Shown piece by piece: positions 398 through 64,000 of a DNA stretch of 64,000 nt (its first letter is position 1; the number at the start of each line of letters is the position of its first letter). The stretch lies in the NCBI GenBank assembly GCA_032718475.1, contig JAUCBJ010007513.1, forward strand, positions 66,515 to 130,514, in the 5' to 3' direction. The notes beneath the pieces are model-generated. The model was not told the origin of the DNA and made no database searches. It saw nothing but the letters and a program-made list of their open reading frames with translations. Source of the stretch: Nemertoderma westbladi. Taxonomy: Eukaryota; Animalia; Xenacoelomorpha. A program made the translations under genes and the position numbers.

Positions 398-1814
398 TTA
401 GTCTTTCTTGCGCGGACGGCGTTTACGCAGTTTCTTAAAGCTAGCCAGAGTCCTTTTCTCTTTGGGGCGAGCCACTTTACAAGGAGGGCTATAACTCCTG
501 GGTGAAGGGTGCAATATGATTGCATCAGAGGGTGTAGGATTATGGTCGGTGTATCCGCCAGTCGAAGTACCGGGTTGATTGACATCAACGTCCGGGGAGA
601 GGGGTCTAACGGCTTTGAGAGCTCGTTTCAAGACAGCCGCTCTTACGGGTCCTTTACGAGTGGTCTGAACGAGGGCCGTGGGTGGACCATAGGCAGTTAG
701 AAACCTCCGGGGTTTAATGGTCCTTTCCAACTCGCGTTCGCGGGCTCGGTATTCGTAAGGCCGTCGATATACTTCCTGTAACTCGGGGTGTGAGTTAACA
801 AACAAGTCTCCATAGTCCGGATCCTGACGGATATAATTGATTAAGTTATAGGAATGAAGGTCGCTAGGATTAACACTCCTGAGAAATTTGCGTACGAATT
901 TGGTTGAAATACATTCTCCAACGCGCTTCAGTAGCTCGTAACTTGATATGCGTGATTTCTGTTCAACCGAAGCGAATAGATAAGGATGGAACGCATAAAC
1001 TCCTTCGTAAGCGCGTCCGGGATAATAGCGATGGCGCGAATCACAATGTAAATCAGCGTTCGCTTCCCAAGCTCTGATGTAACGTAGTGTGATCATTTCA
1101 TCTACGCTTTCCAAATCGTGATTAAAAGGGCAATCGAAACTGGCATGTCCCTTTAGTTGACAATGGTGACATTGAGTCATTAATTGAGGGCAAACCGCAA
1201 AGATATGCAAGTTATTGAGTCTGCAATATGCGCAATAAATTTCCATAGTCGGTTGTTCTTGGAAATAGGAACAGCGGACGTTGGTGTCCATGGGCGTATC
1301 GTGGTCTCTCGATGCGCATAACCGACAACGTTGCCGAGAAACATAGTTGGCATGGCGATAATCATACGCAGTGAGACACTGTGGACCTTGATACCATTCT
1401 AGGATGTAATCGTTGTCGCTGTTCCGGGCGCGATAGGCTGAATCTCCTCAGATTCTAGGCATATTGGTTCGTCTTCCCAGTCTGTTACGAATAGGATTTT
1501 CGTAATCTATTCTCGGTTTATCGTTACGACTCCGCTGGGTATGATATTTAAATAGAACCATTTCCCTTTTGGTGTCTATATCGTCCGTATCATGTAAATC
1601 GATAGGATGGCCGGTAGTTAGGAAGTCCATATACGTACGATTACGATGCGTATAGCGAGCGGTGAATTTTCGATAGTCCAATTCACGCGTAAGTTGCTCT
1701 TGGGACATCGGCGGTTCGATATAACGACTATCGTCCTCCGTAATGGTTGGATCGGCTTCACCGCGTATTAAGCTATCCACAAATACCAAGATCATCTTCT
1801 ATCAACTCCGTCAT
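398..1814 (-). pseudogene. Deleted remnant of the Bel/Pao accessory ORF(s): N-terminal MTELIEDDLG part fused to the C-terminal Zn-knuckle/basic-tail part
   Basis: Matches copy B 57186-~57555 and ~60350-61431. It has a ~32-bp deletion near 1783 and a ~2.8-kb deletion near 1475. The C-terminal 297 aa are open here (GGA where B has TGA at 61177). Confidence 0.9.
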
Positions 1815-24100: not shown

Positions 24101-24206
24101 CTAGCCAATGTTCTTGGATGCCCAGTATATCACATGTGTCTAGCAGAGACATTATATACTCCTCATTGTTAATAAATCCTCGGCAGTTATATGTTGCGAG
24201 TTTCAA
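21162..24206 (-). pseudogene. LINE ORF2 (AP endonuclease + reverse transcriptase) with two in-frame stops
   Basis: TYNCRG, IQEHWL, GGVAMFV, MDSNAD, IDHI, SDHVP (APE); SYRPVS, DIEGAFD, GIEQGSLLSPLLF, FAND (altered YADD). The three listed ORFs share one frame, with stops at 22890 and 22368. Confidence 0.92.
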
Positions 24207-24366
24207 ATGTACTGATTCACTTATCCTATCCTGGTTATCCTTAATTCCCGAGGTCCCTGGTCCACTACCATGATCTCCAGTGTTAAACCCGCTGTTTGTA
24301 GTTGTTCCTCATTAGAATTCTACTCGGTCTACTAGAAAACGAGTCAGCGACAACTTTGTTGTCTCT

Positions 24367-27849: not shown

Positions 27850-28775
27850 CGCCTTCCAGGCGCACTACATCAAATCCTCAGTCCATCCCTCCTTGGCGTC
27901 CGTGGTGTCCCCGAAAGTTGCACTTCGGACATCGGTTCTGCAACCGTGGACACGCTCCCATCATGTGGCTCGTCTCGTGGCAGTAGAGACAGCTGGTCCC
28001 TTTCTGGAACCGGTACAAGCAGCTCCTTTCCTGGTGGGTCTGTCTCCCACAGTAGCCGCAACCGAGTACCAATGTCTCCAATGTACCAATGTCTCCCGCC
28101 CCATGTCGTCTTTCATCCCAAGCGATCTCCGCGGTCTGTGGAGTCGCTGATAGGCGAACTTCTAGACGTTAGCGTCCCTGTCTACGTCGATCTCCTCGCC
28201 CCTCCCGGGCATCGTCTCTCCGAATACTACCCGTGGTGCCGTCCCCGGTTGCTTGCCCAACCTGATAGTGCTCCCCGCGAAATCCATCGCCGGCTCCTCG
28301 TGCACCCAGGCCCGCTTGCCGGGTTTGTCCCAGAAGGCTCTCGCCCCACTGGCCGTCACCACCCTCCCGCCAACCCAGTCCGTGTCCGAGTGGCCTATCC
28401 TCTCGATGGGCGGCATCTCTCCGAACTCGTCGTCGTCCTCGTCCTCCTCTCGCAGTGGTCCCAACCCCGGTATCCCGGTGGACCCACTATGTCCCTTCCC
28501 GCCTTGGCTCTCGCCCGTAGCTCTCCATCCCTCTAGCTCCCTTAACTTCCTTTGCGGTTGTTCGCCCTCGGCGCCCGCTGGTATGGGCATCGCTTGGGTT
28601 TCGGTGATCCCACCGTCCACCCCAGTTCTTTCCCTAGAGACTCCCCCGAACTCCCTGACGAAGCCCAACGAAGTTCGTCTAAGGCTGCTTATTCCTCGAA
28701 GCCTTAGCTCTGCGCCCTAGCTTCCTCCTCCCTCTCCTCTGCTTCTCTCCTCTCTCACAAGTTTGCCTGCCATCT
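27850..28775 (-). pseudogene. Element C accessory ORF downstream of pol (acidic/Gly-rich region plus triple Zn-knuckle), disrupted
   Basis: Removing a 17-bp tandem duplication (~28066-28096) and reading through the TAG at 28162 joins ORF 28162-28668 to CGYCGRQTHQERSC..CLYCHETSHMMGACPRLQNRCPKCNFRGH. A further frameshift is likely near 28715. Confidence 0.7.
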
Positions 28776-44821: not shown

Positions 44822-46095
44822 TGTAAAAGCTTCTGTGGGATATAACTGGCCCTTTTGCTTCGCAATCCAGTTTCCCCCCTAGGCGCTGGAATACTCTAAA
44901 AGGCTCTATAACTATATATATATTCCCCTCGCCCGCAAGGTACCGTTATAGGTGTTTTAACGGACATAAAAGTCATTCTGCTATATACGTGTTTTGGCGG
45001 ACATGGTAAGGCAAAAAACCTGCAATGCACCAAATACCTTTACACAGCTTAGCCTTGATGATTCAGATTACGACATCTAACAGCTGGTTGCTGACATGGG
45101 AACAGCCATTGGACACGTAGTTCTTTGTTTAGCTTAAGCCAATCAGAGCGATTTTTTCTGTCGATGTGGAGATATTCAGCAGATCGTGCTAGTAGTGTTC
45201 AGTCTTACTGTTTTTTCTTGATACTGTTGTGTTGTTGCTATCTAGGCCAGGAACACCGGCTCTAGAGTCAATTCGTTTTCATACTTTAGAAGAAACATTA
45301 GTAGGCTTAAATTATAGAGCGTATAACTGTTATCAATTCATCACATATCTTATCTAATCATATCAACTGATCGCAATTCAGTCTTACATTATCGGTTCAA
45401 TATACATTATTATACTGCTATTTACTATTGTTTGGTTGAATATTATTTGGAGAATATTTATAAAGAACCGAAATTTCCCAATTTTCTTGATACACTACAG
45501 GTTAGAGAGACGGGTTATATATAGCGATTGCGACTTATATTATTGTGGTTTGTAGTGAATTTAATGCTATTTGATAAGCACTACATGAATCCGTTGCTGT
45601 CTTCTTTATATATGATAAAATTCATTGACGGTCGGCAAATTAGTGAGCAGTATTGTGTGTTACCGGTAGTGTGCATGATTGTGACTGATAACTAAGCATT
45701 TCCTAAAGAATGCGCCTCATACGTGAATCATAAGCCTTACCGACTTACCGTTGTGATTAGTATAAGTCATATCTCTGTTTACCTAGATAGAGCGCCACGT
45801 CCTAAAGGAACTGTTAATATTTCCCGAAAGTAAATAATATTAGTCAGAAATTATTTATTAACGATCAATCGAATAATACAATACAGTAAGCTTACACTGC
45901 AATAATAATCTAAGCCCTCAGAATCCAGTCTCCCGGGTATATCCAGCGGGTGAATGGACGCGCACTAGGCTGGCTTCTGCTAATGTTGTGTTTATTGGTA
46001 TTAAATATTTGTCATCTTCTAAAGTCTATTTATAAACCAAAAGACATATAAATTTTGGCGGGTTAAACTGCTAAAGGTCTTCAAAAGCGCGTACA
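44822..46095 (+). repeat. 5' LTR of copy B (1274 bp)
   Basis: TGTAAAAG...CGCGTACA. About six differences from the 3' LTR by eye. Confidence 0.96.
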
Positions 46096-48331
46096 ATAAC
46101 AGTTATTGACTTTATTGCAGTAAGCAATAAAGTTGAAAGTACCGGTCGACCGGTAAACCTGAACCGGTACTTCTGTAGGTCAGTAGGCCCAACTGCCAGA
46201 ACCGGTACTGCTGTAGGTCTGTAGGTCCAACTGCCAGAACCGGTACTTCTGTAGGTCCGTAGGCCCAACTGTCCTAACCGGTACTTCCAGTATAAGTACA
46301 TTAGTATTATTCGATTTTGATTATTGTATACCGGTAGGTCTCGATATTAAATCGGGGACGCCTGGTTTTTATTGAGATTTTACTTAGGTCTATTTCTGTC
46401 AGTTTTATTTCCTAGTAAGTTAATATTGAGCTGAAGACGTGTAAGTCTGCTCAGATTGTTCGGATAACTGTAGGCCGGACTGTTGTCGGATTGTTGTTGG
46501 GTTTGGAGAGATTACGGCGTGTGTAGAGTTTGTCCGATAGAGTGCCAGTTAGTAAGTTGGGGCAGCCATAGCTGTAAGGTCAATCCCCTCTTAAAGAATA
46601 AGTCGTACTACCGTGTTAGAACGCATACTAACTAACCATTTTGGAATCTGCACATACTGTAGTTTATTTAGGCTTGACAGTATTCTGCCAGCGTTTTGGT
46701 CTGTGTTTGTTTGTGTGGTCTGTTCAGGTACCGTAATAGTTATTACTCAGATATTTTGTAGGCTGGATTGTTGTCTAGCTATTATTAGGTCTGAAGATAT
46801 TGCTGCGTGTGTAGAGTTTGTCTGATAAAGTGCCAGTTAGTAAGTTGGGGCAGCCATAGCTGTAAGGTCAATCCCCTCTTAAAGAATAAGTCGTACTACC
46901 GTGTTAGAACGCATACTAACTAACCATTTTGGAATCTGCACATACAGTAGTTTATTTAGGCTTGGTGGTAGTCTGCCAGCGTTTTGGTTTGTATTTTGTT
47001 TGAGTATTCTGTACGGGTAGCGTAATATTTATTATTCAGAGTTTATGCGATTATTCGCAACATTCATGTCCCCAAGTTTATTCCTACAGTAATTGTGTTT
47101 GTTATACATACCGTTATAGTTAAATTAACCCCGGTACTACACGGGCTGCTTGGCGTAGGACAAGACTGGTGATTTTGTGCACCGGTCACTCCAGCAGATG
47201 CCGTGGTTCTTTTAACTGTTCAAGTATATTTAACTACTGATTATTTGTTGTACCAGTACTTGTACCTAATTTAGGGTTTAGTGTACAGTGCTTTCCGAGG
47301 TAATTAGTGTGTAGGCAGTATATTTGTGTTGTAAAGTAGTTAATAGGCACGCTGGATCTGGTAGTCCGCGGTAATTAACTTCTAGGTAGGAACACTCCGT
47401 GATACATAACGTAGTACCTATAGCAATACGGTTATAGGTCGTCAGGCGGTGGTATTTTCCTATCTGGACAGTGCAATATATTTACTACTACTTATTATTT
47501 CAAATACCGTAGTACCCTGTCCGTTGTAATAACCAGAATTCTAACCCTTTGTTAGGCTGGTTTGTAGACTTCCTGTAAAATTACCCTAAAATTTCGTACG
47601 TTATATTTTTGTTGTGTTTAATTAGAGATTTAATCTCACCCGTATCGTAAGTAATTTGTAGTATTAAGTAACTTAGGTAAATTAGAATTATCTGTTTTAG
47701 TGTCCCATAGGTAGCACTTCACTGAGATCGCACAGCTTCTGTGTAGTGACTCCCCCAGAAATAATAACATTTATTTCAAATATTGACAAAACCCCTTTTA
47801 AACGGGTATATATATATTATAAATCAACTCAAACGATTTATAAATAGTAGGCCTGCCATACAACAACTAGGTCTCAATATCAGTTGGACTACTGCTTAAA
47901 TAACGGTAATAAAGTAAGTTAAAGTAACTAAGTAACCCTAAAAATATTCAGAAATTCAATTATTCTAAAATAATTGACATACCGGTATTTACCATAGGCT
48001 TATTATATTTATTTCTATAAATTTGAGCTGAAATCATACCGGTACTCTGTAATTAATTCTAGTCCATAATTATACTTATATATACTATCAGTGTAAGCTG
48101 TATACCGGTATTCACGATAGGCCTATTATATATTTATATATATTTGTGCTAAAATTATATACCGGTACTCTGTGACAAACCTAGTTTACAATACTTATAT
48201 ATACTATAAGTGTATACCGGTATTCTAATATACTGCAATAAATTACCGGTACTAGGCCAACGGGCATACTGAATTACTAGACTTGCTTTAACTGTAACTA
48301 TAGCAGTAAGCATTCAACTGTATAGCTAAAC

Positions 48332-51300
48332 ATGTCTGACACCCAGCAAAACCTGTCAGACAGTCTAATCGATACAACCATCTGTGACACAGATAGGAGT
48401 GTGGAGCGATTAAGAAAGGAGTTCAGCTCACCTCCTACTGAAAGAAAGGTCATCCCTCCAGTAGTAGTATCAGACCCTAAGCTAATCCAACACCGTAGGT
48501 CTATCATCGGCACTCGGGCCCAAGTCAAACGGAACCAGGAAGCAGCTGTCCCACAGCAGCAACAGCCTAGTCAAGAAACTTGTTCCCAGCGATCCGATAG
48601 CTCCAGTAATTCGGATACTGTCGAGCTGACCCCCGAACGCGGATTGCAGATGGCGGCTAAAGCCTACTCGGACCCCCTTCTCACCCTTCCTGCCGCAGTG
48701 CTAACTACTATATTGATTGCGGTGGAGGAACATCAAGCCGATTGGGCGAGAAGTAAACGAGCGACCCAAGATAATTATGCGGGATACGCCAGGGAAGAAT
48801 TGATGTCTATTGTCGAGTCACAATGGAACTTTCCCGGACCCGGACTCCCGTTAGATTTGTCCGAAGCTACTTGGGAAGATATACACAGGATGGGAGTGAC
48901 TAAAGATACAATGGATCCAGCTGTTTGGAAGAGGTCGGCAGCAGGATATGTGCAGGGATTCTTCGGCTCCTTGGAGCGATCAGAAGAACAACTGTTTCGA
49001 CAACCCCAAGGACCTCAAGAGCAGGAAGAGCTGCTATATCAAGTACGCGAAAGAACCCTACGCATTAGACTAATCCTATCAGCCTTTGAGGAAACTTCCA
49101 AAAGAAGACAGGACACGTCGCTGCAGGTTGCTGTCAAAACTTGGTTCCAGCGGGTAGGTCTCAAAGTACAAGAAACGGACCAGTGGAAATCCCAGCTGTC
49201 TGAGAGACTAACCTATGAAGAACCAACCGATGCCACCCTTTCTCAAGTGGAAGGCGAAGAGACCGCAGAGAGACCACGAACGAGAGACGCCATCGACATA
49301 TATCTGTCCGACTATCAGCGATTCCTAGGAGACGAAGAGTTGAGGAGACGGCTGTCTGGACTTTCCCCTAATAGTGAAGGAACCCAGCGTGTGTTAGACT
49401 CAATCGATGCTGAAATGTTAGCTGCTAACCAAGCTGAGTTTGATGAAAAACTCCGCCTCACTAGAGTCCAAGAAGAACTAGTAAAGAAAAGACGGATAGA
49501 GGACCGAAAGGCAGCTGAAGTAACAGCGGCAATGGCAGAAGTAGAAGCAGAAAGAAAGGCAGCGGCGGCAGAAGCAGAAGCAGAAAGAAAGGTAACAGCG
49601 GCAATGGCAGAAGTAGAAGCAGAAAGAAAAGTAACAGCGGCAATGGCAGAAGTAGAAGCAGAAAGAAATATTCCCTATTCCCTATAGACCTGATAATGAT
49701 CCGAGAAATTTATATACCGATAATTCGATATTAAATAACACGATGGCCCAAGAAAGCTTTTCGCGTCAGATGGCTAGAACAGAAGCCCGCCAAGCGGTCA
49801 AAGTGGGAGAGATCGTCAAATTCAATGGAGATGAGATGAAATGGTTACCTTTCAACGAATATTACAAAGATAGCATACAAAACTCTGTACTATCTAACGG
49901 AGAGAAACTTAGGTTCCTCATCAAGTGCTTGGAAGGACCTCCCAGGTTAATGGCGTTAAAGTTTATTGGACATCCAGAAGGATTAAGACAAGTATGGGAT
50001 ACATTAAACATCAGGTATGGTAACAAGGATAACATAGCTAAGTATTTGTATGCAAAATTAGTAGCCCCCCGACACTTCCTTAGTAGCGGGATTATAGAGT
50101 TTTCCGATGAAATTCAGGAGATCTGTAGACAATTGGACTGGTTAGGTAAGTCTCATGAATATCAGAATTCAATGGTTATTGGAGCCGTAGTCTCTACTTT
50201 ACCAAAGGGTGGAGTATGTACACGCTGGGACAAGAAAGTGTTGTACATGAATGAATAACAACGACGAAGTCCTACCATGGCTGATCTCATGTCCTTCTTA
50301 GATGGTGAAGTAAAACTACAACTCATCAAGCAGTCCAGAGAGAAAACATCGGAAAATAAGGTAAGTGAGAAACCCGCTTCTAGGAGAAGAGTAACACCGG
50401 TGTGTTACACTGATGATGGCGAAAGCCAGGCTTCTCAAGAAGAGGACAGCGGGAAAGACACAGATCGATCTTACTATGTTGACAAAACCTCAAAAGATGT
50501 AAGTAAATACAAGGCTCGAAACAATGATAGGAGAGAACAGGTTGCCAAGACCCCTCCTCAGTCTCCTAACAGAATGCACCGAAGAAAACCCGAAGAAAAA
50601 ACGAGAGTGCATCAAGTTACCCAAGGTAAAGTGAGTAACATAAAACCTAACTGTGCGCTGTGCGACGGGACCCACCGTTTGAGTGCGTGTGCTGAATTTC
50701 TAAAGAAATCCCTTGTAGACAGACGTGCAGTCGTATGGGATAAGCGGTTATGCTATAATTGCCTCAGACCAGGACACCAACGGCGAACCTGTTACTCCGA
50801 CATAAAGTGTGCAAAGTGTGGCGCGAAACATCACATCTTGTTACACAGTGAGTTCGAACGAGACAAACAGAGTCAGGTAAGTGAGCCCGAACTACATGTC
50901 CAATTCAGTGATGTAAATGACACTGACCAGGAGTCTGAGATGGAAGGATTTTATACTGACGAATTCTCCGACGCCAACGAATCCTGTTATCTAATCAATA
51001 CCGCAGTGTATCGAGCACTTACTTATGAAAAGGACACTAACAATGAGTTTCCCCCAACTACTTTTGCCAAACAACCATCTTGGAAAGCTCCAACTTCCAA
51101 CGTAGGAATCAGAGAATTTCCTGTAGTGCAGGTAAGAGTTCACGGTCCTAACAAAAGTTACATAGTGAACGACTCCTTGACTCCGGCAGCACAGGAACAT
51201 TCATCGATCAAGAATTAGCCGAAGATATCTTTGCTGGACAACCCAAATTCCGGACTAAATTGAATATGTCAGGAATTATGCAGGTTTGGAAATCTACCCT

Positions 51301-54300
51301 AACGGCAGATTACTATGTAGGTGTGTTGTCCACCCCCCAGGATAAGTTAGGAGCACAAGGTATAAGGTCGGTAAAAATGGTGGCTATAAAGAACTTCGCT
51401 ACTACTCAAGCAGACCTTTATAATTGGGACGAGGATGAGAGCATCCAACATCTTAAGATACCTCGATTCCAGACAGATTATCCTGGAGTGCAAATACTCA
51501 TCGGCCAAAACGCGCATGAGGCGCTCGAAACATTGGAGAAACGGCCTGCTCAACCACAGCCACTGCAAACCTATGCGGTAAGAACTAGAGTAGGTTGGTA
51601 CTTTACTGGCCCTTCCCGCAGGACTCTCGAAGAGAGAATGCCACAAGAACAAACATACCAAGTAAACGATTGGGAAGTGGAGAGCAGTGAGGTGGACGAA
51701 CTAACTGAGGGAACACCATACTCCTCAGATAATGACGACATCTACCAACTCTTCGATGAAGAGAACACAATCGACCTACTTACAGAAAACCAAACTTGGA
51801 AAAATCAGGTGAACCTATGTCAACTGATTCGCCCATCGGAACCCATCGCTTACAATGACGAACTAAACGATGAGATAGAGCGCTACAACGCTAGAACTCG
51901 GGACGAACTAGCCGTACGATTCTTTACTCAAGAACTGGTAGAGCCTAATTCATATGATAAGGCCCTATCGATAGAAGAAGAAAGAGCCAAGCAAATCCAG
52001 GAAACAACTACACGTTTTTTAAAGGACCAAGGTAGATATGAAATCGGCCTACCATTTCGAAAACGAGAACCTAGATTTATAAATAACAGACCCTTGGCAG
52101 AGAAAATAATCGCTCAATTACATCGACGCCTTACGGCTAATGCTTCAGCTAAAGAAATGTACCAAACTCAGCTGAAGAAATTTATAACAAAGGGATACGC
52201 GGAGCGAGTACCGGAAGGAACACCAGTGACTGAGAGAACGTATTACTTAACACATCATTACGTTCCCAAACCCGGTAAACCCCACGAAGTACGAGTCGTA
52301 TTCGATGGCTCCGCCCTATATATGGGCCAATCCCTCAATTCCGAGTTGTTACCAGGACCCAACTTACTCCAATCTTTGTTGGGAATACTTTTAAGATTAA
52401 GACAATATTCCATCGCGTTCGCCTCAGATATAGAAGGAATGTTCTTACAAGTCAAGGCGCTGGATAGAGATAGAGACAGCCTGAGATTTCTGTGGTGGCC
52501 TGAAGGAGACCTCAATCAGAAACCGGTAGAGTACTGGATGACCATCCAGGCTTTTGGAATCATATCAAGCCCTTCCAACGCCTGCTCCGTGGTGCGAACC
52601 ACTGCGAATGACAACTGAGACTCCTTCTCAAAAGAAGTGATAGACAACATAAAACGCAATATATACATGGACGACAATTTAAGGTCCCTTCCATCAGTAG
52701 AAGAAGCCATAGCTGTCGCGAAAGGAACGGTAGAGTGTTTGAAAAGAGGTGGATTTCGACTGACGAAATTCACTAGCAACTCCCGTGAGTTTCTGGAAGC
52801 CATACCGGTAGAAGACCGAGGAACGAAAGACCTAGACTTAATAAAGGACGATCTTCCTGAAACCAAGACGCTAGGCTTGAAGTGGGACACTGAAAGATAC
52901 ATCCTGTTTTTTCAGTTAAAACAGCGAGATAATCCAGTTCAGACCAAACGGATTTGTTTAAGTATCCTGAGCACTTATTTCGACCCATTGGGATTTATTA
53001 GCCCAGTTATATTTATTGCTCGGAGTTTAGTACAACAAATGTGGCTTGAAAACCACTCATGGGACGATCCGCTTAAGGGAGAATTGTTAAAGAAATGGAT
53101 GAAATGGGAAGATTCTCTACCTGCCATCGAGAACTTTATAATTTCCCGTGCATATTTTGGCCATGTTCTTCCTACGTATTCTTATCAACTCCATGTGTTT
53201 GGAGACGCCAGCGACATGGGAATAGGTATAGTAGCATATCTGCGAGTCGAAACCCCGGATGGAATCAAAGTCGCCTTGGTTACCTCTAAGGCATTGATTA
53301 ACAACAAGTTAAAGGTTCCTCGAGCGGAGTTAAAGGCGGCTATATACGCTACAGCCATCGGCCGGAACGTAACGGAACAAATCGACTATCCACTGGAGAA
53401 AACGGTTTATTGGACCGACGCTTTACTCGTGTTGGAGTATCTAACCAATGAAGTCTGTCAGTTCAGCGTTTTTGTTACTAACAGAGTAGCTATTATTCTT
53501 AGTCGCACAAAGATAGATCAATGGAGACATTGCCCTGGTACGATTAATCCAGCCGATATCGCCTCCAGGGGAGCAACTCCACAGGAACTGATAGATACTC
53601 CAGATTGGTTGGGTGGACCCGACTTCCTGAGCAAGGAAGAGGATGAATGGCCTCCTCACCTTACTACGGCAGAGATTAGACAAGCCAAGGGAGTGGAGAC
53701 AGTCAAACCTAAAACCTGGGCGAGTAAATCGAAGTTATTTAAACCGACTATCGATCTATCTGTATTACACACTTCCGGGAATGATGCTTCGGATCCACAA
53801 TCCCTCAACACAAATAAGTCTGTTGTGGAAATTAGAGATAGAGATTGGAAATCTGGAATACCAGACGTCTCGCAAGGAATCTCACCCATGCTGCAGAGAG
53901 CAATGCATCATTACAGTTCCTGGAATCGGCTCTGTAAAGCCGTCACATATTTAAGACGATGTTTTCATCATCACTACTCCAGGACGAAGACCACTAGTGA
54001 TAACGCTCCATTGACATCTGCACAAGTTCATGTTATTAAAAATTTACCCAAATATAAGACATCTGACCGTTTTCTAAAGGAGAAAATTAGTCACCAGGAG
54101 CATGAAGAAACCAATAAGCAGATACTGAGACTCCTGCAATGCTATGAGGATTCCGAAAAGTATTTCCTGTTGTTGAGAAATCCGCAGATGCGCTTAAGGG
54201 ATCGATTCTCGAGCACAATGATAGATGGGCTAATACGTGTTGGAGGAAGACTCACCAATGCGCCCTTATCCTTTGACACCAAATTCCCCATACTTATTAG

Positions 54301-55561
54301 AAATCTTGAAGTACAAATCAAGATGATTGTAGATGTTCACAGTAAACTTTATCATGCTGGTAGAGAACGAATTCTTAGCGAAATTCGAACTCGCTATTAT
54401 TTTGATAAACCCCGTAGAGCTCTGAACCAAGTTCTTAGGAACTGCATACCCTGTAGGAAAGCATTCAGTAGGCCTTTAACACAGCGAGAGGCAGAATTAC
54501 CTAGGGAACGAGTAAGCTTCTATGAACCACCTTTTACTAATACTGGTGTAGATTTATTTGGCCCTATTGAAGTATATCGTGCTAGGACTATAGTCAAGAG
54601 ATGATGTGTCATCTTCGTGTGCATGACTTGTAGAGCCATCCATCTCGATATGGTGAACGATCTATCTACCAACAGCTTCGTCTTAAGTTTACGACGACAG
54701 ATCGCTCGCTTCGGGACGAGTAATACCATGAGATCGGATAAGGGAACGAACTTCATTGGTGCCAACAACGAAATACAGGCTTACGTGAAGGACTGGAACC
54801 AAAGACAGGTGGACGACCAGCTAAGGATAACAGCGTCTAGCTGGACCTTCAATGCCGCCGGCGCCCCTTGGTGGGGAGGAAGTTGGGAGAGATTAATTCG
54901 AAGTGTCAAAACCGCATTTCACTTTATAGTGCCATGCCGCGCGTATCTCACCGACGAACTTTTGCGGACATTAATGGAGGAAATCGCTGCCTATCTCAAC
55001 GAGAGACCGCTTATGCCAGTCTCATCGAGTCCCGATTCCCTGGAAGCGCTAACACCCGCGCACTTCCTACTGAAGAAACCTGTAGCCATGCTCCCACGAT
55101 CGGAGATTGCCGACGGAGACGAATACTGCCGTCGAACTTGGCAACTTATGCAGTTGCTATCCCGTCGTTTCGCTGACCATTTCAAGAAACATTATCTGCC
55201 CACGCTACAACTTCGAACTAAGTGGTTTGCGCAGCAAGAAAACGTCAGCGCCGGAGATATGGTGCTTATTGTAGATCCAGACCTTGGCATACGGTGATCT
55301 GACAAACGGTGGCAGACAGGTCGTATCATCGAGACCCACATCTCGGACGATGGTTTAGTACGCTCGGTAGAACTCATCGTCATGCGGCGTAACTTCAAGA
55401 AGCCAGGCATAATCTTTGAGACGCAACAACTCAATCGCCCAGTTGGTCGTTTATGTTTACTGGAAAGAGACAGAGAACTCTCCGGAAACTATGGAAGGCA
55501 AGACACTCTTCCCACGACCACCTCCCTAATTCCTCAAACATCTAGGGACTCCCCAACGTGA
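48332..55561 (+). pseudogene. Copy B gag-pol, including the RNase H and integrase missing from A; disabled
   Basis: ~0.9-kb gag deletion at ~49668 relative to A, stops at 50256, 52616, 54602 and 55295, and a frameshift in the protease motif at ~51171. Integrase motifs HSKLYH..CIPC, VDLFGP, SDKGTNF, WERLI. Confidence 0.93.
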
Positions 55562-56104
55562 TACGTCTGGAGTGGGTGTATGATTACATTATTTTACCTA
55601 TTTTATTATATTTTTATATGCGAACTTTATTATGTACTTTATTATAATCGTTTTTATTCAATTTTATTTAGTAGAATGTTATTTTAGTGATTATTTAGTA
55701 GATTAGTGCAATATATTAGTGTTTATTACGTACGTAATTACTTATAATATATATTTAGTGCGACGGCGAGAAATAATTTTTCTCTTTCCTTACTGTCCGT
55801 ATCACATTATAAATACGTGACTACAGTAAGATGAAATGTCCGTACTTCTTAAAGTACAATAAAGCCACTACTATATTCAAGTGTTATTGGTAGGCAGAGT
55901 ATTAGGAATGCAAAGTTCAGATCCTCGTGTCTCGGCTAAACCAAGCTCTGGGTAGACCTTGGAAACGACTTGCCTCTTCACACTGACATTGCTTCGTGCG
56001 ATATTGCTCTTCTACCTTATATTAAATAATACTTATAGTAGCGTGATGTCCTTCTAACAGTAGCGTAAAACGCAAATAAACCTGTTAAACCTTTTGACCA
56101 TCTG

Positions 56105-56390
56105 TAATTCTAGTCGATTAAGATATCGCGGCACCCACCGATATACTTGAAAGACCAATTCTAGAATCAGTGGTTAACGTCCCCAGACAAGCTCTGGAAT
56201 AAATCGGTGCCCATCTTAAATATTAATTTAATATTTATTAAAATCTGTAAAATTCAGATCCGTTAACAATTCTAGTCGATTAAGATGTCGTAGCACTTAC
56301 CGATACTCTTAAAAGACAAATTTCATAGAATTAAGGATCCTATGTCCCCAGACCTGCTCTGGAATCAAATTGTGTCAATTATTAACATCA
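56105..56390. repeat. ~160-bp degenerate tandem duplication in the pol/accessory spacer of B
   Basis: AATTCTAGTCGATTAAGAT...GTCCCCAGAC..GCTCTGGAAT occurs at ~56106 and ~56268. Confidence 0.75.
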
Positions 56391-57185
56391 AATAATAAAA
56401 TTCACGGGAATAAATTTAAATTCATATTTTAAATGAATTTCATAAATTGTCATTTTGTACAATTTATAACATTCCCAAAATTCCATTAATTAATAGATCA
56501 TGGGAGCGGAGATTCATCTTATTGAGTGTATTAGAGTGCGAGAATCTCCAACATATAGTCAATAGCCGATAAAATTAATAAAATCATGCATAAAGAGGAT
56601 ATTGACAATTAAAGAATTATTATTAAATAGCATCCCAGATCTGTATGCATGAGAATTACCCTAATTCTACCCCTAGCATTCCATAATGTCACCATAGCAA
56701 CACCCACGCTAGAATTAGAAGCAAGTTAAAAGAACAATAGAAAGCTTGTCCCATTGCCTAGCATAGAGAATATAGCACACTGCTAGTATCCAAGGATACA
56801 CAGTAATAACGTGACATTCTGGAAGGCACTGACTAACGGACAAATGGCCTGTATGTGTGCAGTTGGTGACAGTTGTGTGGAATTTGTGCGTTTATAGGTG
56901 AATGTTACTGCTAAAGTATGTTTACAGTAGCTAGTCGCAATTGTAAAAGTAGCCCAACTCTCCTATAGAAAGAACCTAAGTGGATCCAAGCCTTTGGGAC
57001 GGACAGTGGAGTGACTTGTGCCGGTTATCGTTGTCGTGCTGTTGCTACATGTTGGCGTAAACACCGCGACGACGGTACATCGGCGCTGAGAATCCCACTG
57101 TCCGGGGGCAAAGAGAAGTAGGCAGCGACGCCCGCTCGCCTAAAATATAAACTTAGTTGGATATTAATAAACTCAGATAGCAGAT

Positions 57186-59597
57186 ATGACGGAGTTGATA
57201 GAAGATGATCTTGGTATTAGGGAGCGATATACTCTACCTTTACAAGCATTTGTGGATAGCTTAATACGCGGTGAAGCCGATCCAACCATTACGGAGGACG
57301 ATGGTCGTTATATCGAACCGCCGATGTCCCAAGAGCAACTTGCGCGTGAATTGGACTATCGAAAATTCACCACTCGCTATACGAATCGTAATGGTACGTA
57401 TATGGACTTCTTAACGACCGGCCATCCTATCGATTTACATGATACGGACGATGTAGATACAGAGAGGGAAATGGTTCTATTTAAATATCATACCCAGCGG
57501 AGTCGTAACGATAAACCGAGAATAGATCACGAAAATTCTATTCGTAATAGACTGGAAAGAGAAAACGTTGAAGAACCGGATAAACGCATCGACTTCAACG
57601 AATACCTAGAATTTTTGAGAGAAACCTATCTCAACATCGCTAGTCAGCAGAACTTAGAGACTCGATATCCTCAAGGTATACATCACGACCCTGTGGTAGA
57701 ACTCAAACGGCTCTATTTCACTATGATGTATCTTACCGCCGATCGTCCACTACCTGTTATCCCGGATAGTTTTGAACAAATGGAAGAATACTGCAAAACT
57801 GGAGAACGATCACCCGCGTTTCCTCTACAGGACGTACGTCTTTGGTATTATTGTGACGAATGCCCTAGACCCAACCAACAAACTGAAAGACATAAACATC
57901 CGCGGAGACGTTGCGCTAAACACAGCTTTACGCGTTACACTTACGGGAGTTTCGAGCGAAACCTGTTCGACATACCACCTACGATCGCTCGTCTTAAACG
58001 ATCACTGAATAAACCCATGATCAGAGTTCCGGAATACTCGGTCAGGCCTCCTCATTCCCTAGTGAGACCTCAAACTCTTGATCCTAACAGTATCACTGAT
58101 CCTCCCGAACTATATTCCCTGTTCAAAGACTTAGTGTTACCCGAACAATTAATCGGTGGTGCTCCGGTAGTGGGTTCGTTAGACATCCGCCCATCCTACT
58201 TAGCCGGATTGGGACGCGGGCAGCTAATATCGCCCTTTGATCCTTACAATCGTCCAGGATTAAACCCGATGCAACCCGCCACGGAAGTCGAGGAGAGCGT
58301 TATAAGAAACGCTTTAGACGCCATTCGACAGAAAATCGGAAAGGGAACACAAGATTGTTTAGAGAAACGTAAATTACAACAACAAGTCCAATCGGTGAAG
58401 GAGTTAGCCTTGCCACAGTTCGATAGAGAAATCCAAAACCTCGAGGAAGACATCGAGCTTGGACGCACGTATTCTCTACAAGAATTTTTAGATGAACGCT
58501 TACAGAGACAAGCGGAAGAAAATCTACTCGAAGAGAAACACACGAAACTGGAAGAGAGAGAGGAAGCCGCTTTAGCCCAACCGGAAGCTCAAATCCTCAT
58601 GACGGACCTCTACTCTAAAACCGTTCGTCATCCCTCGATGATTCCACATTTCGGGGACAAGCTCTTCGCGACGATACAACCTCAACCGGTTGATATCAGT
58701 ACAGGATCGCAAAATCTTATCGCTGACGCCCCTATGTTACAGCGTCCGCCGATCGAGGCCGCTCGTGTTGACGGTATACTCGTTGAACCTCCGGACAATC
58801 GAGCGGATCTTGTCCGTCGTATGGTACACGATGTCAACATACGCGCTAGACCTTTACAGAACTCGTTTTATGGGATTAAAGACCACCCTTATTACGTTAA
58901 TCTGACTCAATATTATATGGTAAAACCAGAAGACCCGACACATAATTTAAAGTTTCTACCACTAATAAATCCTCTAGACATTGTCGAACTCGAACAATTG
59001 CAGAAACATCTGGATCAGTTAGTAAAGGTAAACTCATTCAGAAAACCATATAACATTTCTCGAATCGAGAAAGATATAGAACCTCCTTATAATCTCGATG
59101 GATTTATTAAAACTCGATTAGTCCATTGGAATCTAGATGTATTATTTGAAGAAGAGAAAATACAAAGATATGGAAATGTGGAGACGTATACCACTCGGCA
59201 CATGAAGTATAGTGATCTCCCTGACACTAACCAATGCGCCACCTTGTGGCATCCAGTAGGGATGACCCTAGAGAACGCCACCAAGGAGTGGAATGAAACT
59301 CTTAATGTTATTGAGATGTATGGAGTTGTCACCTACGATAATGAAGGTAGCGTTCCGGTCGGAGAACTAGGAACTACGCGCATGATTCACATACGCGGAT
59401 TAGCTGGTTCTACCCACGTGTTTACTCGAGCGTGTTCCGACGTGATTGATTATTCCTTTGAAACTCTCACCGAAACACAAAAGAATCTCCGACATGGACA
59501 ATTCGAACTCGCGCAGCGTTACGTCATTGACACCGAACGCAAACCGGCCATGGGCATCGATGTTACCCCAGCCCGTACTCGAGATGTTATTCAATGA
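57186..59597 (+). CDS. Bel/Pao accessory ORF X1, 803 aa, unknown function (Cys/His motif, coiled coil; no signal peptide or TM segment)
   Basis: Long open frame inside the LTR-bounded element. YYCDECPR...HKHPRRRC; coiled coil around LEKRKLQQQVQ...KLEEREE. The N-terminus is conserved in copy A. Confidence 0.85.
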   Translation: MTELIEDDLGIRERYTLPLQAFVDSLIRGEADPTITEDDGRYIEPPMSQEQLARELDYRKFTTRYTNRNGTYMDFLTTGHPIDLHDTDDVDTEREMVLFKYHTQRSRNDKPRIDHENSIRNRLERENVEEPDKRIDFNEYLEFLRETYLNIASQQNLETRYPQGIHHDPVVELKRLYFTMMYLTADRPLPVIPDSFEQMEEYCKTGERSPAFPLQDVRLWYYCDECPRPNQQTERHKHPRRRCAKHSFTRYTYGSFERNLFDIPPTIARLKRSLNKPMIRVPEYSVRPPHSLVRPQTLDPNSITDPPELYSLFKDLVLPEQLIGGAPVVGSLDIRPSYLAGLGRGQLISPFDPYNRPGLNPMQPATEVEESVIRNALDAIRQKIGKGTQDCLEKRKLQQQVQSVKELALPQFDREIQNLEEDIELGRTYSLQEFLDERLQRQAEENLLEEKHTKLEEREEAALAQPEAQILMTDLYSKTVRHPSMIPHFGDKLFATIQPQPVDISTGSQNLIADAPMLQRPPIEAARVDGILVEPPDNRADLVRRMVHDVNIRARPLQNSFYGIKDHPYYVNLTQYYMVKPEDPTHNLKFLPLINPLDIVELEQLQKHLDQLVKVNSFRKPYNISRIEKDIEPPYNLDGFIKTRLVHWNLDVLFEEEKIQRYGNVETYTTRHMKYSDLPDTNQCATLWHPVGMTLENATKEWNETLNVIEMYGVVTYDNEGSVPVGELGTTRMIHIRGLAGSTHVFTRACSDVIDYSFETLTETQKNLRHGQFELAQRYVIDTERKPAMGIDVTPARTRDVIQ

Positions 59598-61431
59598 AAG
59601 AATCCTTAAGATCGGCTCAGCTGTTTATGGAGATCTCCAAAACGACTTTCGGAATATGGAGAACATTCCATACCCTTTCGTTGATACTCAGCTGATTGCC
59701 CCCTGGGCAGTAGGTCGAGGTTTCTTCCGCACCATGTATGCTAATACGTCTAGCAACATTACAAAGGTGCAACGAACTTCCATCGGACATCTTGCCTTTC
59801 AGGAATACGGATGGAATTTCAAAGTCGGAAATCCCATTAACTATCAACAAGTATACGGAGACCATTATTCTCGATTATACTTTGATGGACCATTGACCGC
59901 ACCTGGTGCCGTGTATAGCTTCATGAGTGTTCCACTCCGTCCCTCCTTAGCTATATACACGATCTTTGAAAACACAGCACTTGCCGGTTGGCTAGCCGAT
60001 GTGTGCAGTCGTACTATACGCGCCCATCCATTAATACTTGGGACCAAACTCGCTAAGCTAGATGAACATAATAAATTCATCCATTTCGAATGTTTCCGGC
60101 GATTTTTAACCCCGTTCCGCAACGTGGATAGCCAATTTAAAGACCGCGCTTTGACCAAGCTCAGCCTAAGAAACTCAGCTGCAGAGAAGTTGGATAGCGC
60201 TGGATTCGCCGTTTTCCAAGAGATTTGTATATCGAACTTGCACTCTTCTGTTATACAAAGACCTCGAATCCCCACAGGTTATTCTGTCGTGGAAATTCAG
60301 ACAATAGGTCCACCTGAAGAGACAGACGCGCCCACTTCAGCTATGCACTTGGAAGACGAACCAATATGTCTAGAATCTGAAGAGATTCAGCCTATCGCGC
60401 CCCGGAACAGCGACAACGATTACATCATAGAATGGTATCAAGGTCCACAGTGTCTCACTGCGTACGATTATCGACATGCCAACTATGTTTCTAGGCAACG
60501 TTGTCGGTTATGCGCATCGAGAGACCACGATACGCCCATGGACACCAACGTCCGCTGTTCCTATTTCCAAGAACAACCGACTATGGAAATTTATTGCGCA
60601 TATTGCAGACTCAATAACTTGCATATCTTTGCGGTTTGCCCTCAATTTATGACTCAATGTCACCATTGTCAACTAAAGGGACATGCCAGTTTCGATTGCC
60701 CTTTTAATCACGATTTGGAAAGCGTAGATGAAATGATCATACTACGTTACATCAGAGCTTGGGAAGCGTACGCTGATTTACATTGTGATTCGCGCCATCG
60801 CTATTATCCCGGACGCGCTTACGAAGGAGTTTATGCGTTCCATCCTTATCTATTCGCTTCGGTTGAACAGAAATCACGCATATCAAGTTACGAGCTACTG
60901 AAGCGCGTTGGAGAATGTATTTCAACCAAATTCGTACGCAAATTTCTCAGGAGTGTTAATCCTAGCGACCTTCATTCCTATAACTTAATCAATTATATCC
61001 GTCAGGATCCGGACTATGGAGACTTGTTTGTTAACTCACACCCCGAGTTACAGGAAGTATATCGACGGCCTTACGAATACCGAGCCCGCGAACGCGAGTT
61101 GGAAAGGACCATTAAACCCCGGAGGTTTCTAACTGCCTATGGTCCACCCACGGCCCTCGTTCAGACCACTCGTAAATGACCCGTAAGAGCGGCTGTCTTG
61201 AAACGAGCTCTCAAAGCCGTTAGACCCCTCTCCCCGGACGTTGATGTCAATCAACCCGGTACTTCGACTGGCGGATACACCGACCATAATCCTACACCCT
61301 CTGATGCAATCATATTGCACCCTTCACCCAGGAGTTATAGCCCTCCTTGTAAAGTGGCTCGCCCCAAAGAGAAAAGGACTCTGGCTAGCTTTAAGAAACT
61401 GCGTAAACGCCGTCCGCGCAAGAAAGACTAA
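59446..61431 (+). CDS. Bel/Pao accessory ORF X2: triple Zn-knuckle and basic C-terminal tail; one premature stop at 61177 in this copy
   Basis: CRLC..H..C, CAYCRLNNLHIFAVC, CHHCQLKGHASFDC (CX2CX4HX4C); ends KKLRKRRPRKKD. In the +1 frame relative to X1, with an ATG at 59584 just before the X1 stop. Confidence 0.85.
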
Positions 61432-61506
61432 CTGTTTAGAGTATTTACGTTTAGAAACTATGATTTTGAATATTTTATAGACTCAAATCCCATTTTCTGG
61501 GAGCGG

Positions 61507-62776
61507 TGTAAAAGCTTCTGTGGGATATAACTGGCCCTTTTGCTTCGCAATCCAGTTTCCCCCCTAGGCGCTGGAATACTCTAAAAGGCTCTATAACTAT
61601 ATATATATTCCCCTCGCCCGCAAGGTACCGTTATAGGTGTTTTAACAGACATAAAAGTCATTCTGCTATATACGTGTTTTGGCGGACATGGTAAGGCAAA
61701 AAACCTGCAATGCACCAAATACCTTTACACAGCTTAGCCTTGATGACTCAGATTACGACATCTAACAGCTGGTTGCTGACATGGGAACAGCCATTGGACA
61801 CGTAGTTCTTTGTTTAGCTTAAGCCAATCAGAGCGATTTTTTCTGTCGATGTGGAGATATTCAGCAGATCGTGCTAGTAGTGTTCAGTCTTACTGTTTTT
61901 TCTTGATACTGTTGTGTTGTTGCTATCTAGGCCAGGAACACCGGCTCTAGAGTCAATTCGTTTTCATACTTTAGAAGAAACATTAGTAGGCTTAAATTAT
62001 AGAGCGTATAACTGTTATCAATTCATCACATATCTTATCTAATCATATCAACTGATCGCAATTCAGTCTTACATTATCGGTTCAATATACATTATTATAC
62101 TGCTATTTACTATTGTTTGGTTGAATATTATTTGGAGAATATTTATAAAGAACCCAAATTTCCCAATTTTCTTGATACACTACAGGTTAGAGAGACGGGT
62201 TACATATAGCGATTGCGACTTATATTATTGTGGTTTGTAGTGAATTTAATGCTATTTGATAAGCACTACATGAATCCGTTGCTGTCTTCTTTATATATGA
62301 TAAAATTCATTGACGGTCGGCAAATTAGTGAGCAGTATTGTGTGTTACCGGTAGTGTGCATGATTGTGACTGATAACTAAGCATTTCCTAAAGAATGCGC
62401 CTCATACGTGAATCATAAGCCTTACCGACTTACCGTTGTGATTACCGTCATATCTCTGTTTACCTAGATAGAGCGCCACGTCCTAAAGGAACTGTTAATA
62501 TTTCCCGAAAGTAAATAATATTAGTCAGAAATTATTTATTAACGATCAATCGAATAATACAATACAGTAAGCTTACACTGCAATAATAATCTAAGCCCTC
62601 AGAATCCAGTCTCCCGGGTATATCCAGCGGGTGAAAGGACGCGCACTAGGCTGGCTTCTGCTAATGTTGTGTTTATTGGTATTAAATATTTGTCATCTTC
62701 TAAAGTCTATTTATAAACCAAAAGACATATAAATTTTGGCGGGTTAAACTGCTAAAGGTCTTCAAAAGCGCGTACA
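61507..62776 (+). repeat. 3' LTR of copy B (1270 bp)
   Basis: Direct repeat of 44822-46095, preceded by the short purine-rich GGGAGCGG and followed by the TSD. Confidence 0.96.
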
Positions 62777-64000
62777 CCTCCACTGGGCACTTCACCCTCA
62801 CTTATTTTTGATGGAATATTTTCCTCATCAGGCACATCCATATCCCGTTTATTGTTCGAGAAATCGGAATTCGACTCCACTGGATGTTTGATTATATCAA
62901 TATTGACGATTTTATCTCTATAACAATCGTGACCAATACGAATCGTTGTTTGGTTTATGATATTATCTAGAACAGTCCATCCAGCCACCCACTTTGTCAT
63001 ATTTTTTGGAGCTCTGCCTTCTCGGAGTAAATATACTGAATCTCCAATAGTGATCACATGTGGTGGTTTTAAATCCACGTTATCAAGGGTTGACATACAC
63101 TCTTCTAAGTAGTCTATTAATTTCGGATCTCTACTGTAGTTCTTCAACGTCCATCTAGATCCGCCGTCCAATAACGAATTTTGTCTCCAGTCCCAGCCGC
63201 ACATCGCTTTAGCTGGACTTATTAGTGTTGTTGTCGTCGGCCTATGCCGATAGAAATAAAGTAACATGTTAAGTTCCTTACTCCATTCTGTATTACAGCC
63301 AACAACTTTTCGCAGTAGGGTTAAGAATGTTCTATGGAATCGTTCAACCGCTCCTTGACTTTCTGGATGTCTTATAGCTCCACGACGCACATTAATTCCA
63401 AAATTATTATAAAGAACCCTGGTCATTTGATTCAACAATTCTTTTCCAGAATCTGTTCGAATAATCTCCGGTGGGCCCCACCTCTAACATATTTTAAAGA
63501 GTGCGTTTACAATACAATTGTGGTGGTAACTTTCTATTGGCTCTACTTCTACAAACTTTGATAATACATCAAACACTACCAGAAGTCCGACGACATATGT
63601 GGCGTCACCATAAATTTTTACACTATCCATTTGTGCAACCTGCCAAGGTCTGTCTGGGATTACCATCTGTGTACTGGGCACACTTCGTATTGGTTTCTTA
63701 GGGTTGGCTAATGAGCATTTTTCACAATGTTTAATTATTTCTTCACATTCAAAAGCCATATTTGGAAAATAGCACTCTCGTCTTAACAGTTCTCTCGTCG
63801 TTTTGTAACAAGGATGTCCATTTGATTCATGAGTTATTATTGCCTTGTCCACCAGTTTGCAAGGCATTACAGGAACACACAATATGTCATCTGGTGGTAC
63901 TTTCACCTTTCGGTACAACAGAAACAGGTCTAACAGGTGTAGTTATCTTATGTTCTTGTACTACAGGCAGCAATGGCAATTAATGATTCTGAGAGTACTC
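62777..64000 (-). pseudogene. Gypsy E integrase (HHCC + DDE) with one in-frame stop at 63484; the element continues off the window
   Basis: HESNGH...CEKC, PWQVAQMD, RTDSG, HPESQGAVERFHRT, in the domain context of Ty3/Gypsy integrases. Confidence 0.88.

What the first reader, a model, noticed from the sequence alone, without database searches (positions are those of the whole stretch)
57186..61431. About 4.2 kb of non-env accessory coding sequence in a giant Bel/Pao element
Seen: after pol and a 1.6-kb spacer come ORF X1 (803 aa) and ORF X2 (~615-660 aa with the stop repaired from copy A), in sense orientation. There is no signal peptide or TM segment, but there are Cys/His motifs, a coiled coil, three Zn-knuckles and an NLS-like basic tail. 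Known: extra ORFs in Bel/Pao elements (roo, Tas, some Cer elements) are usually env-like. Inference: a nuclear nucleic-acid-binding accessory factor, such as an RNA chaperone for the self-primer, a transactivator or an anti-silencing protein. I recognise no family for X1.
Basis: partly seen in the sequence, partly recalled or inferred. Interest (0 to 1): 0.8.

Follow-up and report, generated by a model that had tools for sequence, protein, structure and literature searches.

The report
Retrotransposon carrying a giant exonuclease-like gene
An unusually large (18 kb) BEL/Pao jumping gene carries one extra 4.2-kb gene, broken in this copy but conserved across its family, that likely encodes an RNA-trimming nuclease with zinc-knuckle RNA grips, a cargo I found in print only for other retroelement groups in rotifers.

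Summary
The coding sequence is real, but it is one gene, not two. X1 and X2 are halves of one ORF of about 1,415 codons, broken in this copy by a frameshift near 59,555 and a stop at 61,177. Contigs from four studies differ in length at that point, and synonymous variation switches frame exactly there. Family differences are 47 of 59 synonymous, against about 19 expected, which indicates purifying selection. The ORF sits inside a 17,955-bp LTR-bounded Bel/Pao-type element and is not env. A divergent DEDDy/RNase D-like exonuclease domain straddles the break (RNase D HMM E=0.0014; profile-profile E=2e-5), followed by CCHC-type knuckles. The first ~690 residues have no family. Both folds were too poor to test the domain, and no RNA evidence exists. 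Best reading: an accessory 3'-5' RNA exonuclease; its activity and target are inferred. DEDDy ORF3s are published for bdelloid Gypsy-like elements and Terminons; I found none for Bel/Pao. This scan noted Rrp6-like ORF3s earlier in another genome's LTR elements. Verdict: new variant of a known kind.

The parts
44822..46095 (+). 5' LTR of element B (TG...CA), preceded by the 5-bp target-site duplication
   Evidence: 99.1% alike to the 3' LTR over 1,274 nt; the same 5 bp flank both ends
48332..55563 (+). gag-pol of Bel/Pao type, broken by several stops and frameshifts in this copy
   Evidence: DUF1759 E=9e-14, Peptidase_A17 E=4e-36, Integrase_H2C2 E=3e-7, DUF5641 E=3e-8; pol frame ends at 55561-55563
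55564..57185 (+). 1.6-kb AT-rich non-coding spacer: purine run plus TG right after pol, TATA-like box at 55808, AATAAA at 55858, a ~162-nt imperfect duplication; inferred site of the promoter or splice acceptor for the accessory gene
   Evidence: no Rfam match; 7 of the 12 indels listed fall here
57186..59597 (+). X1: 5' part of the single accessory ORF; in the family's frame up to about 59,555
   Evidence: 28 of 35 listed differences synonymous in this frame
57852..57923 (+). CxxC...H...C-x-x-H cluster, possible zinc site; no family
   Evidence: seen in the sequence; Pfam blank
58287..58571 (+). predicted long helices / coiled coil (X1 aa 368-462)
   Evidence: pLDDT 45-77
59250..60060 (+). 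divergent DEDDy/RNase D-like exonuclease domain across the break: candidate ExoI D/E at 59337 and 59343, ExoII D at 59632, DTQ at 59683, ExoIII Y at 59956 and E at 59968
   Evidence: TIGR01388 E=0.0014 on the X2 fragment; own DEDDy profile; P0004 pairwise E=9e-14
59550..59560 (+). frameshift break of this copy that splits the ORF into X1 and X2
   Evidence: bridging contigs differ in length here in 4 of 4 runs; the codon phase of variation switches here
59560..61431 (+). X2: 3' part of the single ORF, with an in-frame stop at 61177-61179 in this copy
   Evidence: other copies differ at the stop in essentially all listed depth in 4 of 4 runs; 19 of 24 listed differences synonymous
60502..60699 (+). 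three CCHC-type zinc knuckles (one canonical), followed by a helical motif shared with P0003 and P0004
   Evidence: profile hits to retroviral NC, Lin28 and Air2 knuckles, E 1e-4 to 0.02
61393..61428 (+). basic C-terminal tail (NLS-like, untested)
61499..61506 (+). polypurine tract abutting the 3' LTR
61507..62776 (+). 3' LTR, followed by the target-site duplication
398..1814 (-). both ends of the same ORF in copy A, joined across a 2.8-kb internal deletion (B coordinates about 57,560 to 60,347)
   Evidence: the same joint (57554 to 60351) stands in runs X1, X4 and X5

Best explanation
X1 and X2 are two halves of one accessory gene of about 1,415 codons, broken in this copy but conserved across its Bel/Pao-type family, that likely encodes a divergent RNase D-type (DEDDy) 3'-5' exonuclease with zinc-knuckle RNA grips, predicted to trim or degrade RNA 3' ends for the element's benefit. 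Shown: it is a single ORF, part of the LTR-bounded unit, under purifying selection, and not a membrane protein. Supported by remote homology: the exonuclease-like domain, with acidic residues at all four catalytic positions (the last is Glu, not Asp; the first motif is placed by position only). Inferred: it is made from a separate subgenomic RNA started or spliced in the 1.6-kb spacer. It acts in trans, because copies lacking most of it, like copy A, are present in several samples. The knuckles hold single-stranded RNA while the nuclease chews from the 3' end. The most likely target is the host's small silencing RNAs or their precursors made against the element; the element's own RNA ends (including a self-primer) come second. 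The coiled coil and the unknown N-terminal 690 residues would serve oligomerisation or partner binding.
For: One ORF: the length difference at 59,555 makes up all the depth there in X4 (3 contigs) and X5 (2 contigs), with 1 contig each in X1 and X3 plus 19+12 and 10 loose ends. In the X1/X2 overlap, 4 of 4 differences left of the break are synonymous only in the X1 frame and 4 of 4 right of it only in the X2 frame. Selection: 28 of 35 (random mean 11.5, max 21 in 5,000) and 19 of 24 (mean 7.4, max 15) synonymous. Nuclease domain: the X2 fragment matches RNase D model positions 60-109 (TIGR01388 E=0.0014; NF008089 E=0.013), so positions 1-60 should lie upstream, in X1. Ungapped 43-column match to my 15-sequence DEDDy profile, including ExoII Asp and DTQ. 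Profile-profile score 41.2, E=1.9e-5, 94 columns, against a maximum of 21.4 in 100 column shuffles. ExoI block: the candidate ranks 1 of 772 windows in X1 with the 18-column block and 1 of 631 in P0004. ExoIII block: 1 of 631 in P0004, 3 of 522 in X2. The only two hits among 1.84 billion representatives (P0003, P0004) share the exonuclease-like N-terminal region plus knuckles layout. The ESM Atlas top hit is PF01612 plus zf-CCHC (0.77, a lead only). Precedent: PMC5408684.
Against: No hit reaches a curated cut-off (TIGR01388 18 bits against 298.95; PF01612 E=0.2 on P0004). The HHalign probability is only 77.5%. X1's C-terminus against P0004's N-terminus is not significant alone (601 of 2,000 shuffles as good). 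With shorter blocks a second D-x-E at aa 782-784 outranks the chosen ExoI, though it lies too close to ExoII. ExoIII is Y-x3-E, not Y-x3-D, and P0003 has lost two of the acidic residues, so dead members exist. One X4 contig (depth 23 of 463) has another length at the break that does not join the frames. A 1-nt frameshift near 60,400 has about 12-18% of X1 depth and is shared with copy A. Copy A versus B differences are not enriched for synonymous changes (6 of 16 and 3 of 8), as expected of a deleted derivative. The RNA target is pure inference.
Confidence: 0.5

Rival explanations
1. The gene is a catalytically dead pseudo-exonuclease that only binds RNA, like EXD1 or Maelstrom (named in PMC5408684) or Egalitarian (recalled). 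It would act as an adaptor for packaging, transporting or shielding element RNA, with the coiled coil linking to motors or granules.
For: ExoIII has Glu for Asp, the domain is very divergent, and P0003 lacks the ExoI Glu and ExoII Asp yet keeps a full ORF. A long coiled coil is predicted.
Against: X and P0004, about 31% identical here, both keep acidic residues at all four positions. None of the 40 best-supported differences in 59150-60200 changes those codons (193 rows not shown).
Confidence: 0.22
2. The nuclease works on DNA: it proofreads or trims the cDNA inside the particle and so helps an 18-kb element stay intact, much as nidovirus ExoN allows large RNA genomes (recalled).
For: DEDDy members include the Pol A proofreading domains, and my profile held four of them. 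The element is almost twice the ICTV upper size (PMC8742986). Giant Terminons also carry DEDDy ORFs (PMC6431247).
Against: The best family hits are RNase D. The knuckles resemble RNA-binding NC, Lin28 and Air2. The ORF is separate from Pol. The bdelloid carriers were not described as giant in the passages I read.
Confidence: 0.1
3. The exonuclease likeness is chance, and X is a family-less nuclear nucleic-acid-binding regulator (transactivator or chaperone).
For: All single hits are sub-threshold. Pfam, PDB sequence search and both folds gave no nuclease.
Against: Motifs I, II, DTQ and III occur in the right order in both X and P0004. Three routes (NCBIfam, my own profile, the ESM features) point to the same superfamily.
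Confidence: 0.13
4. X is a passenger: a captured host gene or nested element now decaying.
For: This copy has two breaks, and a deletion derivative is common.
Against: Strong synonymous excess. No terminal repeats flank the module. The ORF ends about 70 nt before the PPT and 3' LTR. It has no introns. All 30 bins are covered in 4 of 4 runs. gag-pol in this copy is equally broken.
Confidence: 0.05

Closest known systems
DEDDy (RNase D-like) ORF3 of bdelloid LTR retrotransposons Juno and Vesta, and of Athena/Terminon retroelements (PMC5408684: passages and Discussion read; PMC6431247: passages read)
   Same: A separate non-env ORF after pol with a DEDDy-type domain, an altered acidic motif (DEED there) and no TM segment. 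The paper notes a Cys-His-Cys motif in some. Function untested in both cases.
   Different: Here the carrier is Bel/Pao-type. The ORF is about 1,415 aa, with ~690 unknown N-terminal residues, a coiled coil (the bdelloid ORFs lack one), three knuckles and a basic tail. The substitution is in ExoIII. Purifying selection is shown here; the bdelloid study found no departure from neutrality. I did not compare the sequences directly.
RNase D / Rrp6 / WRN-exo / Mut-7 cellular DEDDy exonucleases
   Same: Order of ExoI, ExoII, DTQ and ExoIII motifs; best family hit is RNase D.
   Different: Far below the family cut-off, longer inserts between motifs, Y-x3-E, no HRDC hit, and CCHC knuckles instead.
Trypanosome RNase D with a CCHC knuckle (TbRND; name recalled, matching the euglenozoan PF01612 + zf-CCHC Atlas cluster)
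   Same: Nuclease plus knuckle architecture.
   Different: A cellular gene of about 380 aa; the Atlas score of 0.77 is within the chance range.
Env-bearing Bel/Pao elements (roo, Tas, Atlas; PMC8742986 whole text, PMC13524379 passages)
   Same: A third gene between pol and the 3' LTR.
   Different: No signal or TM stretch and no fusogen similarity; the element is 18 kb against the 4.2-10 kb of the ICTV profile.

Membership tests
DEDDy exonuclease (DnaQ-like) | ExoI D-x-E on the first strand | tested here: inconclusive
   Candidate at aa 718/720 ranks 1 of 772 with the 18-column block but 3rd with shorter blocks; clear in P0004, which aligns in register; pairwise alignment not significant
DEDDy exonuclease (DnaQ-like) | ExoII Asp in the 'L...lK.G....D' segment, followed by DTQ | tested here: met
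   Ungapped 43-column match; TIGR01388 E=0.0014
DEDDy exonuclease (DnaQ-like) | ExoIII Y-x3-D | tested here: not met
   Y-x3-E in both X and P0004 at the aligned place; so filed as DEDDy-like, not canonical
DEDDy exonuclease (DnaQ-like) | RNase H-like fold | tested here: inconclusive
   Surrogate model pLDDT 35; no Foldseek hit at E<=0.001 and no VIA-align Z>=5
DEDDy exonuclease (DnaQ-like) | Metal-dependent 3'-5' exonuclease activity | not testable with these tools
   needs an assay
RNase D / Rrp6 proper | Family score and HRDC domain | tested here: not met
   18 bits against a cut-off of 298.95; no HRDC hit in the downstream pieces
Retroelement Env | Signal peptide, TM anchor, fusogen similarity | tested here: not met
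   Maximum KD19 1.21 and 1.10; no Pfam env family
Bel/Pao (Belpaoviridae), the carrier | LTRs, TSD, PPT; Gag/Pol with DUF1759, Peptidase_A17 and integrase after RT/RH | tested here: met
Bel/Pao (Belpaoviridae), the carrier | 18-nt tRNA primer-binding site and a 4.2-10 kb genome (ICTV profile) | tested here: not met
   No TGG after the 5' LTR, 11-nt self-complementarity instead; 17,955 bp. Hence called Bel/Pao-type
Bel/Pao (Belpaoviridae), the carrier | Placement in an RT phylogeny | not tested
   no reference RT set was fetched
Bdelloid-type retroelement DEDDy ORF3 pool | Sequence clade with the Juno/Vesta/Athena DEDDy ORFs | not tested
   their sequences were not fetched

The most novel reading that the evidence does not exclude
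A widespread, undescribed family of retroelement-borne exonuclease-knuckle proteins (X, P0004, P0003, a knuckle-only relic in the second Bel/Pao family of this window) is an active counter-defence enzyme that destroys piRNA/siRNA guides or proofreads the cDNA. It is what lets this Bel/Pao family reach 18 kb and high copy number. That would be the first enzymatic suppressor of silencing, or the first proofreader, carried by an animal LTR retrotransposon.
Probability: 0.2. Interest if true: 0.85.

Novelty: new variant of a known kind. Interest (0 to 1): 0.55.

Why it matters
It extends nuclease-type third genes from rotifer Gypsy-like and Penelope-like elements to a Bel/Pao-type element. It also gives evidence that such a gene is kept by purifying selection, which the rotifer study did not find. 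The family is young and abundant, has a natural deletion derivative, and has predicted catalytic residues. That makes a long-open question testable: what non-env accessory ORFs do for retrotransposons, and whether animal elements encode their own counter-silencing or RNA-processing enzymes.

Tried and rejected
No whole genome is held, so copies could not be counted or aligned. Word-index protein searches found nothing for X1 or X2, and only P0004 itself for alignment A1; only near lengths were searched. The Atlas gave no usable hit for X1. Pfam was blank for X1, X2 and six sub-pieces, apart from DUF6076 at E=0.12. AlphaFold models of X1 (pLDDT 34.7) and of the P0004 surrogate domain (35.2) were unusable; the fold searches on the latter are no evidence either way, and an Egalitarian row at E=3.1 is not counted. 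PDB sequence searches with the exonuclease pieces gave only chance rows. Scans of viral contigs, the first metagenome scan and phages found no relative. No RNA holder is listed; X5 is only guessed to be RNA and shows no GT-AG joint among the 15 of 43 joints printed, so expression and splicing are untested. Rfam was blank over the element. A programmed frameshift or stop-restart coupling between X1 and X2 was rejected because other copies differ in length at the junction and X1's stop is not conserved. A nested element was rejected. Depth was not used as copy number. Literature searches (open-access library only) listed no paper on a DEDDy ORF in a Bel/Pao element. The supplement of PMC3118150 (element lengths per superfamily) was not read and may bear on 'unusually large'.
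Full report
Setting. The finding lies in element B, 44,822-62,776 (17,955 bp, + strand). Its LTRs of about 1.27 kb are 99.1% alike, and the same 5 bp flank both ends. Pfam gives the Bel/Pao-typical DUF1759, Peptidase_A17, Integrase_H2C2 and DUF5641 in a gag-pol broken into several frames. Copy A of the same family lies at 1-16,812 on the minus strand, with internal deletions and a nested Gypsy-like element. The ICTV profile gives 4.2-10 kb for the family (PMC8742986, whole text).

Observation. X1 (57186-59597, 803 aa) and the X2 frame (59446-61431, one stop at 61177) exist. The longest ORF in 1,000 Markov controls was 342 aa. There is no hydrophobic segment, so this is not env.

One gene, not two. 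I laid contigs of four runs from four studies (X1, X3, X4, X5) on the region. All 30 bins were covered in each run. At 59,555, contigs differ in length from the window. In X4 three contigs make up all 462.6 of the depth there: two (439.4) with the common form and one (23.2) with another length that does not join the frames. In X5 two contigs make up all 11.9. In X1 and X3 one contig each shows it, and many short contigs end there as loose ends (19 and 12 in X1, 10 in X3), so I cannot exclude that some copies share the window's form. The only other indel listed in 1,051 bp is in frame. Independently, in the stretch where both frames are open, 4 of 4 listed differences left of the point are synonymous only in the X1 frame, and 4 of 4 right of it only in the X2 frame, one of them in X1's stop codon. 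At the stop at 61,177, essentially all listed depth in all four runs carries another base, and copy A is open there. The family gene therefore has about 1,415 codons and is broken twice in this copy.

Selection. The calls print only the best-supported differences: 40 of 2,005 and 40 of 233. Of these, 59 distinct sites fall in the ORF; the stop site and 14 rows outside the ORF were left out of the count. In X1, 28 of 35 are synonymous (random placement mean 11.5, maximum 21 in 5,000). In X2, 19 of 24 are synonymous (mean 7.4, maximum 15). This is an excess count, not a codon-model dN/dS. Against: A versus B differences are 6 of 16 and 3 of 8 synonymous, and a 1-nt frameshift near 60,400 has about 12-18% of X1 depth. 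Both fit the deleted lineage of copy A, whose 2.8-kb deletion joint (57554 to 60351) stands in three of four runs.

What it encodes. Pfam, two word-index searches and the Atlas gave nothing for X1 and only a 0.77 lead (PF01612 plus zf-CCHC) for X2. A full phmmer scan of 1.84 billion representatives with X2 gave two hits, P0003 and P0004 (E=7e-5 and 1e-4), both unnamed singletons. P0004 matches the start of X2 (31% over 150 aa, pairwise E=9e-14) and the knuckles; P0003 matches the knuckles and the helix after them (E=1e-10). The first ~50 residues of X2 match RNase D model positions 60-109 (TIGR01388, E=0.0014). I built a DEDDy profile from 15 bacterial RNase D, Pol A exonuclease and related sequences (12 plasmid-collection loci, and 3 of the 80 loci). 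X2 and P0004 were the top two of 7 test proteins, with an ungapped match over ExoII and DTQ (single-sequence E 5e-4 and 1e-4; the best control, a pol piece, 4e-3). Profile against profile gave score 41.2, E=1.9e-5, probability 77.5%, 94 columns covering ExoI and ExoII, against a maximum of 21.4 in 100 column shuffles. The ExoIII block ranks 1 of 631 windows in P0004 and 3 of 522 in X2, with Y-x3-E. ExoI in the window's gene must lie in X1: the D-x-E at aa 718/720 aligns in register with P0004 and P0003 and ranks first with the longest block. That alignment is not significant alone (601 of 2,000 shuffles), and a second D-x-E ranks higher with short blocks, though it lies only about 27 residues before the ExoII lysine, against 49 in RNase D and 60 in P0004. 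The folds could not test any of this. I put the DEDDy origin at about 0.8. The knuckles resemble those of retroviral NC, Lin28 and Air2. Residues 1-690 stay unexplained apart from a Cys/His cluster and a predicted coiled coil.

Context of relatives. On L001, P0003's gene is followed within about 40 nt by a purine run and TG, as at a PPT and LTR start; this is suggestive only. P0004's context could not be fetched. The second Bel/Pao family in the window has a short, broken 3' ORF with three similar knuckles (tblastn E 2e-7 to 3e-6 within that region) and no nuclease. A Gypsy gag knuckle in the window also scores E=2e-4 with P0003, so this link is not specific beyond doubt.

How it likely works. 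Shown: the gene travels with the element and is conserved. Inferred: with 1.6 kb of non-coding spacer after the pol stop, it needs its own RNA. The spacer has a PPT-like run plus TG, a TATA-like box and an AATAAA, like a relic LTR or internal promoter, but no RNA data test this. Deleted derivatives in several samples imply action in trans. RNase D-type domain plus knuckles points to single-stranded RNA 3' ends. I favour an active nuclease acting on silencing small RNAs or element RNA ends (0.5) over a dead RNA-binding adaptor (0.22), a cDNA proofreader (0.1), chance likeness (0.13) and a passenger (0.05).

Comparison. Rodriguez et al. describe RNase D-like DEDDy ORF3s in bdelloid Juno and Vesta elements and Terminons, motif DEED, activity untested, no departure from neutrality (PMC5408684; passages, Discussion; PMC6431247 passages). 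Eight searches of the open-access library listed no such ORF for Bel/Pao; the passages read in PMC3118150 and PMC13524379 mention only env-like third genes. Earlier notes of this scan report Rrp6-like exonuclease-HRDC-CCHC ORF3s in another genome; they are unchecked and came after my reading. No note held both 'Pao' and 'exonuclease', and none resembled X2 by sequence.

Verdict. A real, conserved, non-env accessory gene, one ORF, probably a divergent DEDDy nuclease with knuckles. It is a new variant of a known kind: new in its carrier, its size and the evidence for selection. Interest 0.55.

Noticed in passing
window 46096-46106 and 45323-45333: No TGG follows the 5' LTR. The first 11 bases after it are complementary to a site inside the LTR (11 of 5,000 Markov controls), a Tf1-like self-priming lead. 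This scan has noted the same in Bel/Pao elements of other genomes.
   Followed up: partly
window 55564-56060: A PPT-like purine run plus TG directly after the pol stop, then TATA-like and AATAAA motifs: a possible relic LTR or internal promoter. In run X5, two contigs leave the window at 55,557 and show a similar purine run plus TG, as if a related family ends there.
   Followed up: partly
window 27880-28760, minus strand: The second Bel/Pao family (26656-~39,170) has a short, broken 3' ORF with a Gly/Arg/Glu-rich part and three CCHC knuckles like those of X, P0003 and P0004.
   Followed up: partly
window 21162-26850, minus strand: A LINE-like element (APE endonuclease plus RT) with an upstream ORF holding a Ulp1/C48 peptidase domain (Pfam E=3e-5, above cut-off). 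The second Bel/Pao element is inserted in that ORF.
   Followed up: no
window 1-2456 (copy A): The internal-deletion derivative that keeps only the two ends of the accessory ORF recurs in three of four runs; possibly a successful non-autonomous lineage.
   Followed up: partly
window 46096-48331: A 2.2-kb 5' leader with 38-nt and 288-nt tandem repeats.
   Followed up: no
L001:2026-3685: After the P0003 gene: a purine run plus TG, about 1.3 kb non-coding, then an acidic open frame running off the contig, as in an LTR followed by a gag start. Pfam gave nothing useful.
   Followed up: partly
window 2582-7634 and 62752-63942: A Gypsy-like element with 255-nt LTRs is nested in copy A's pol; integrase-like remains flank element B on the right.
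   Followed up: no
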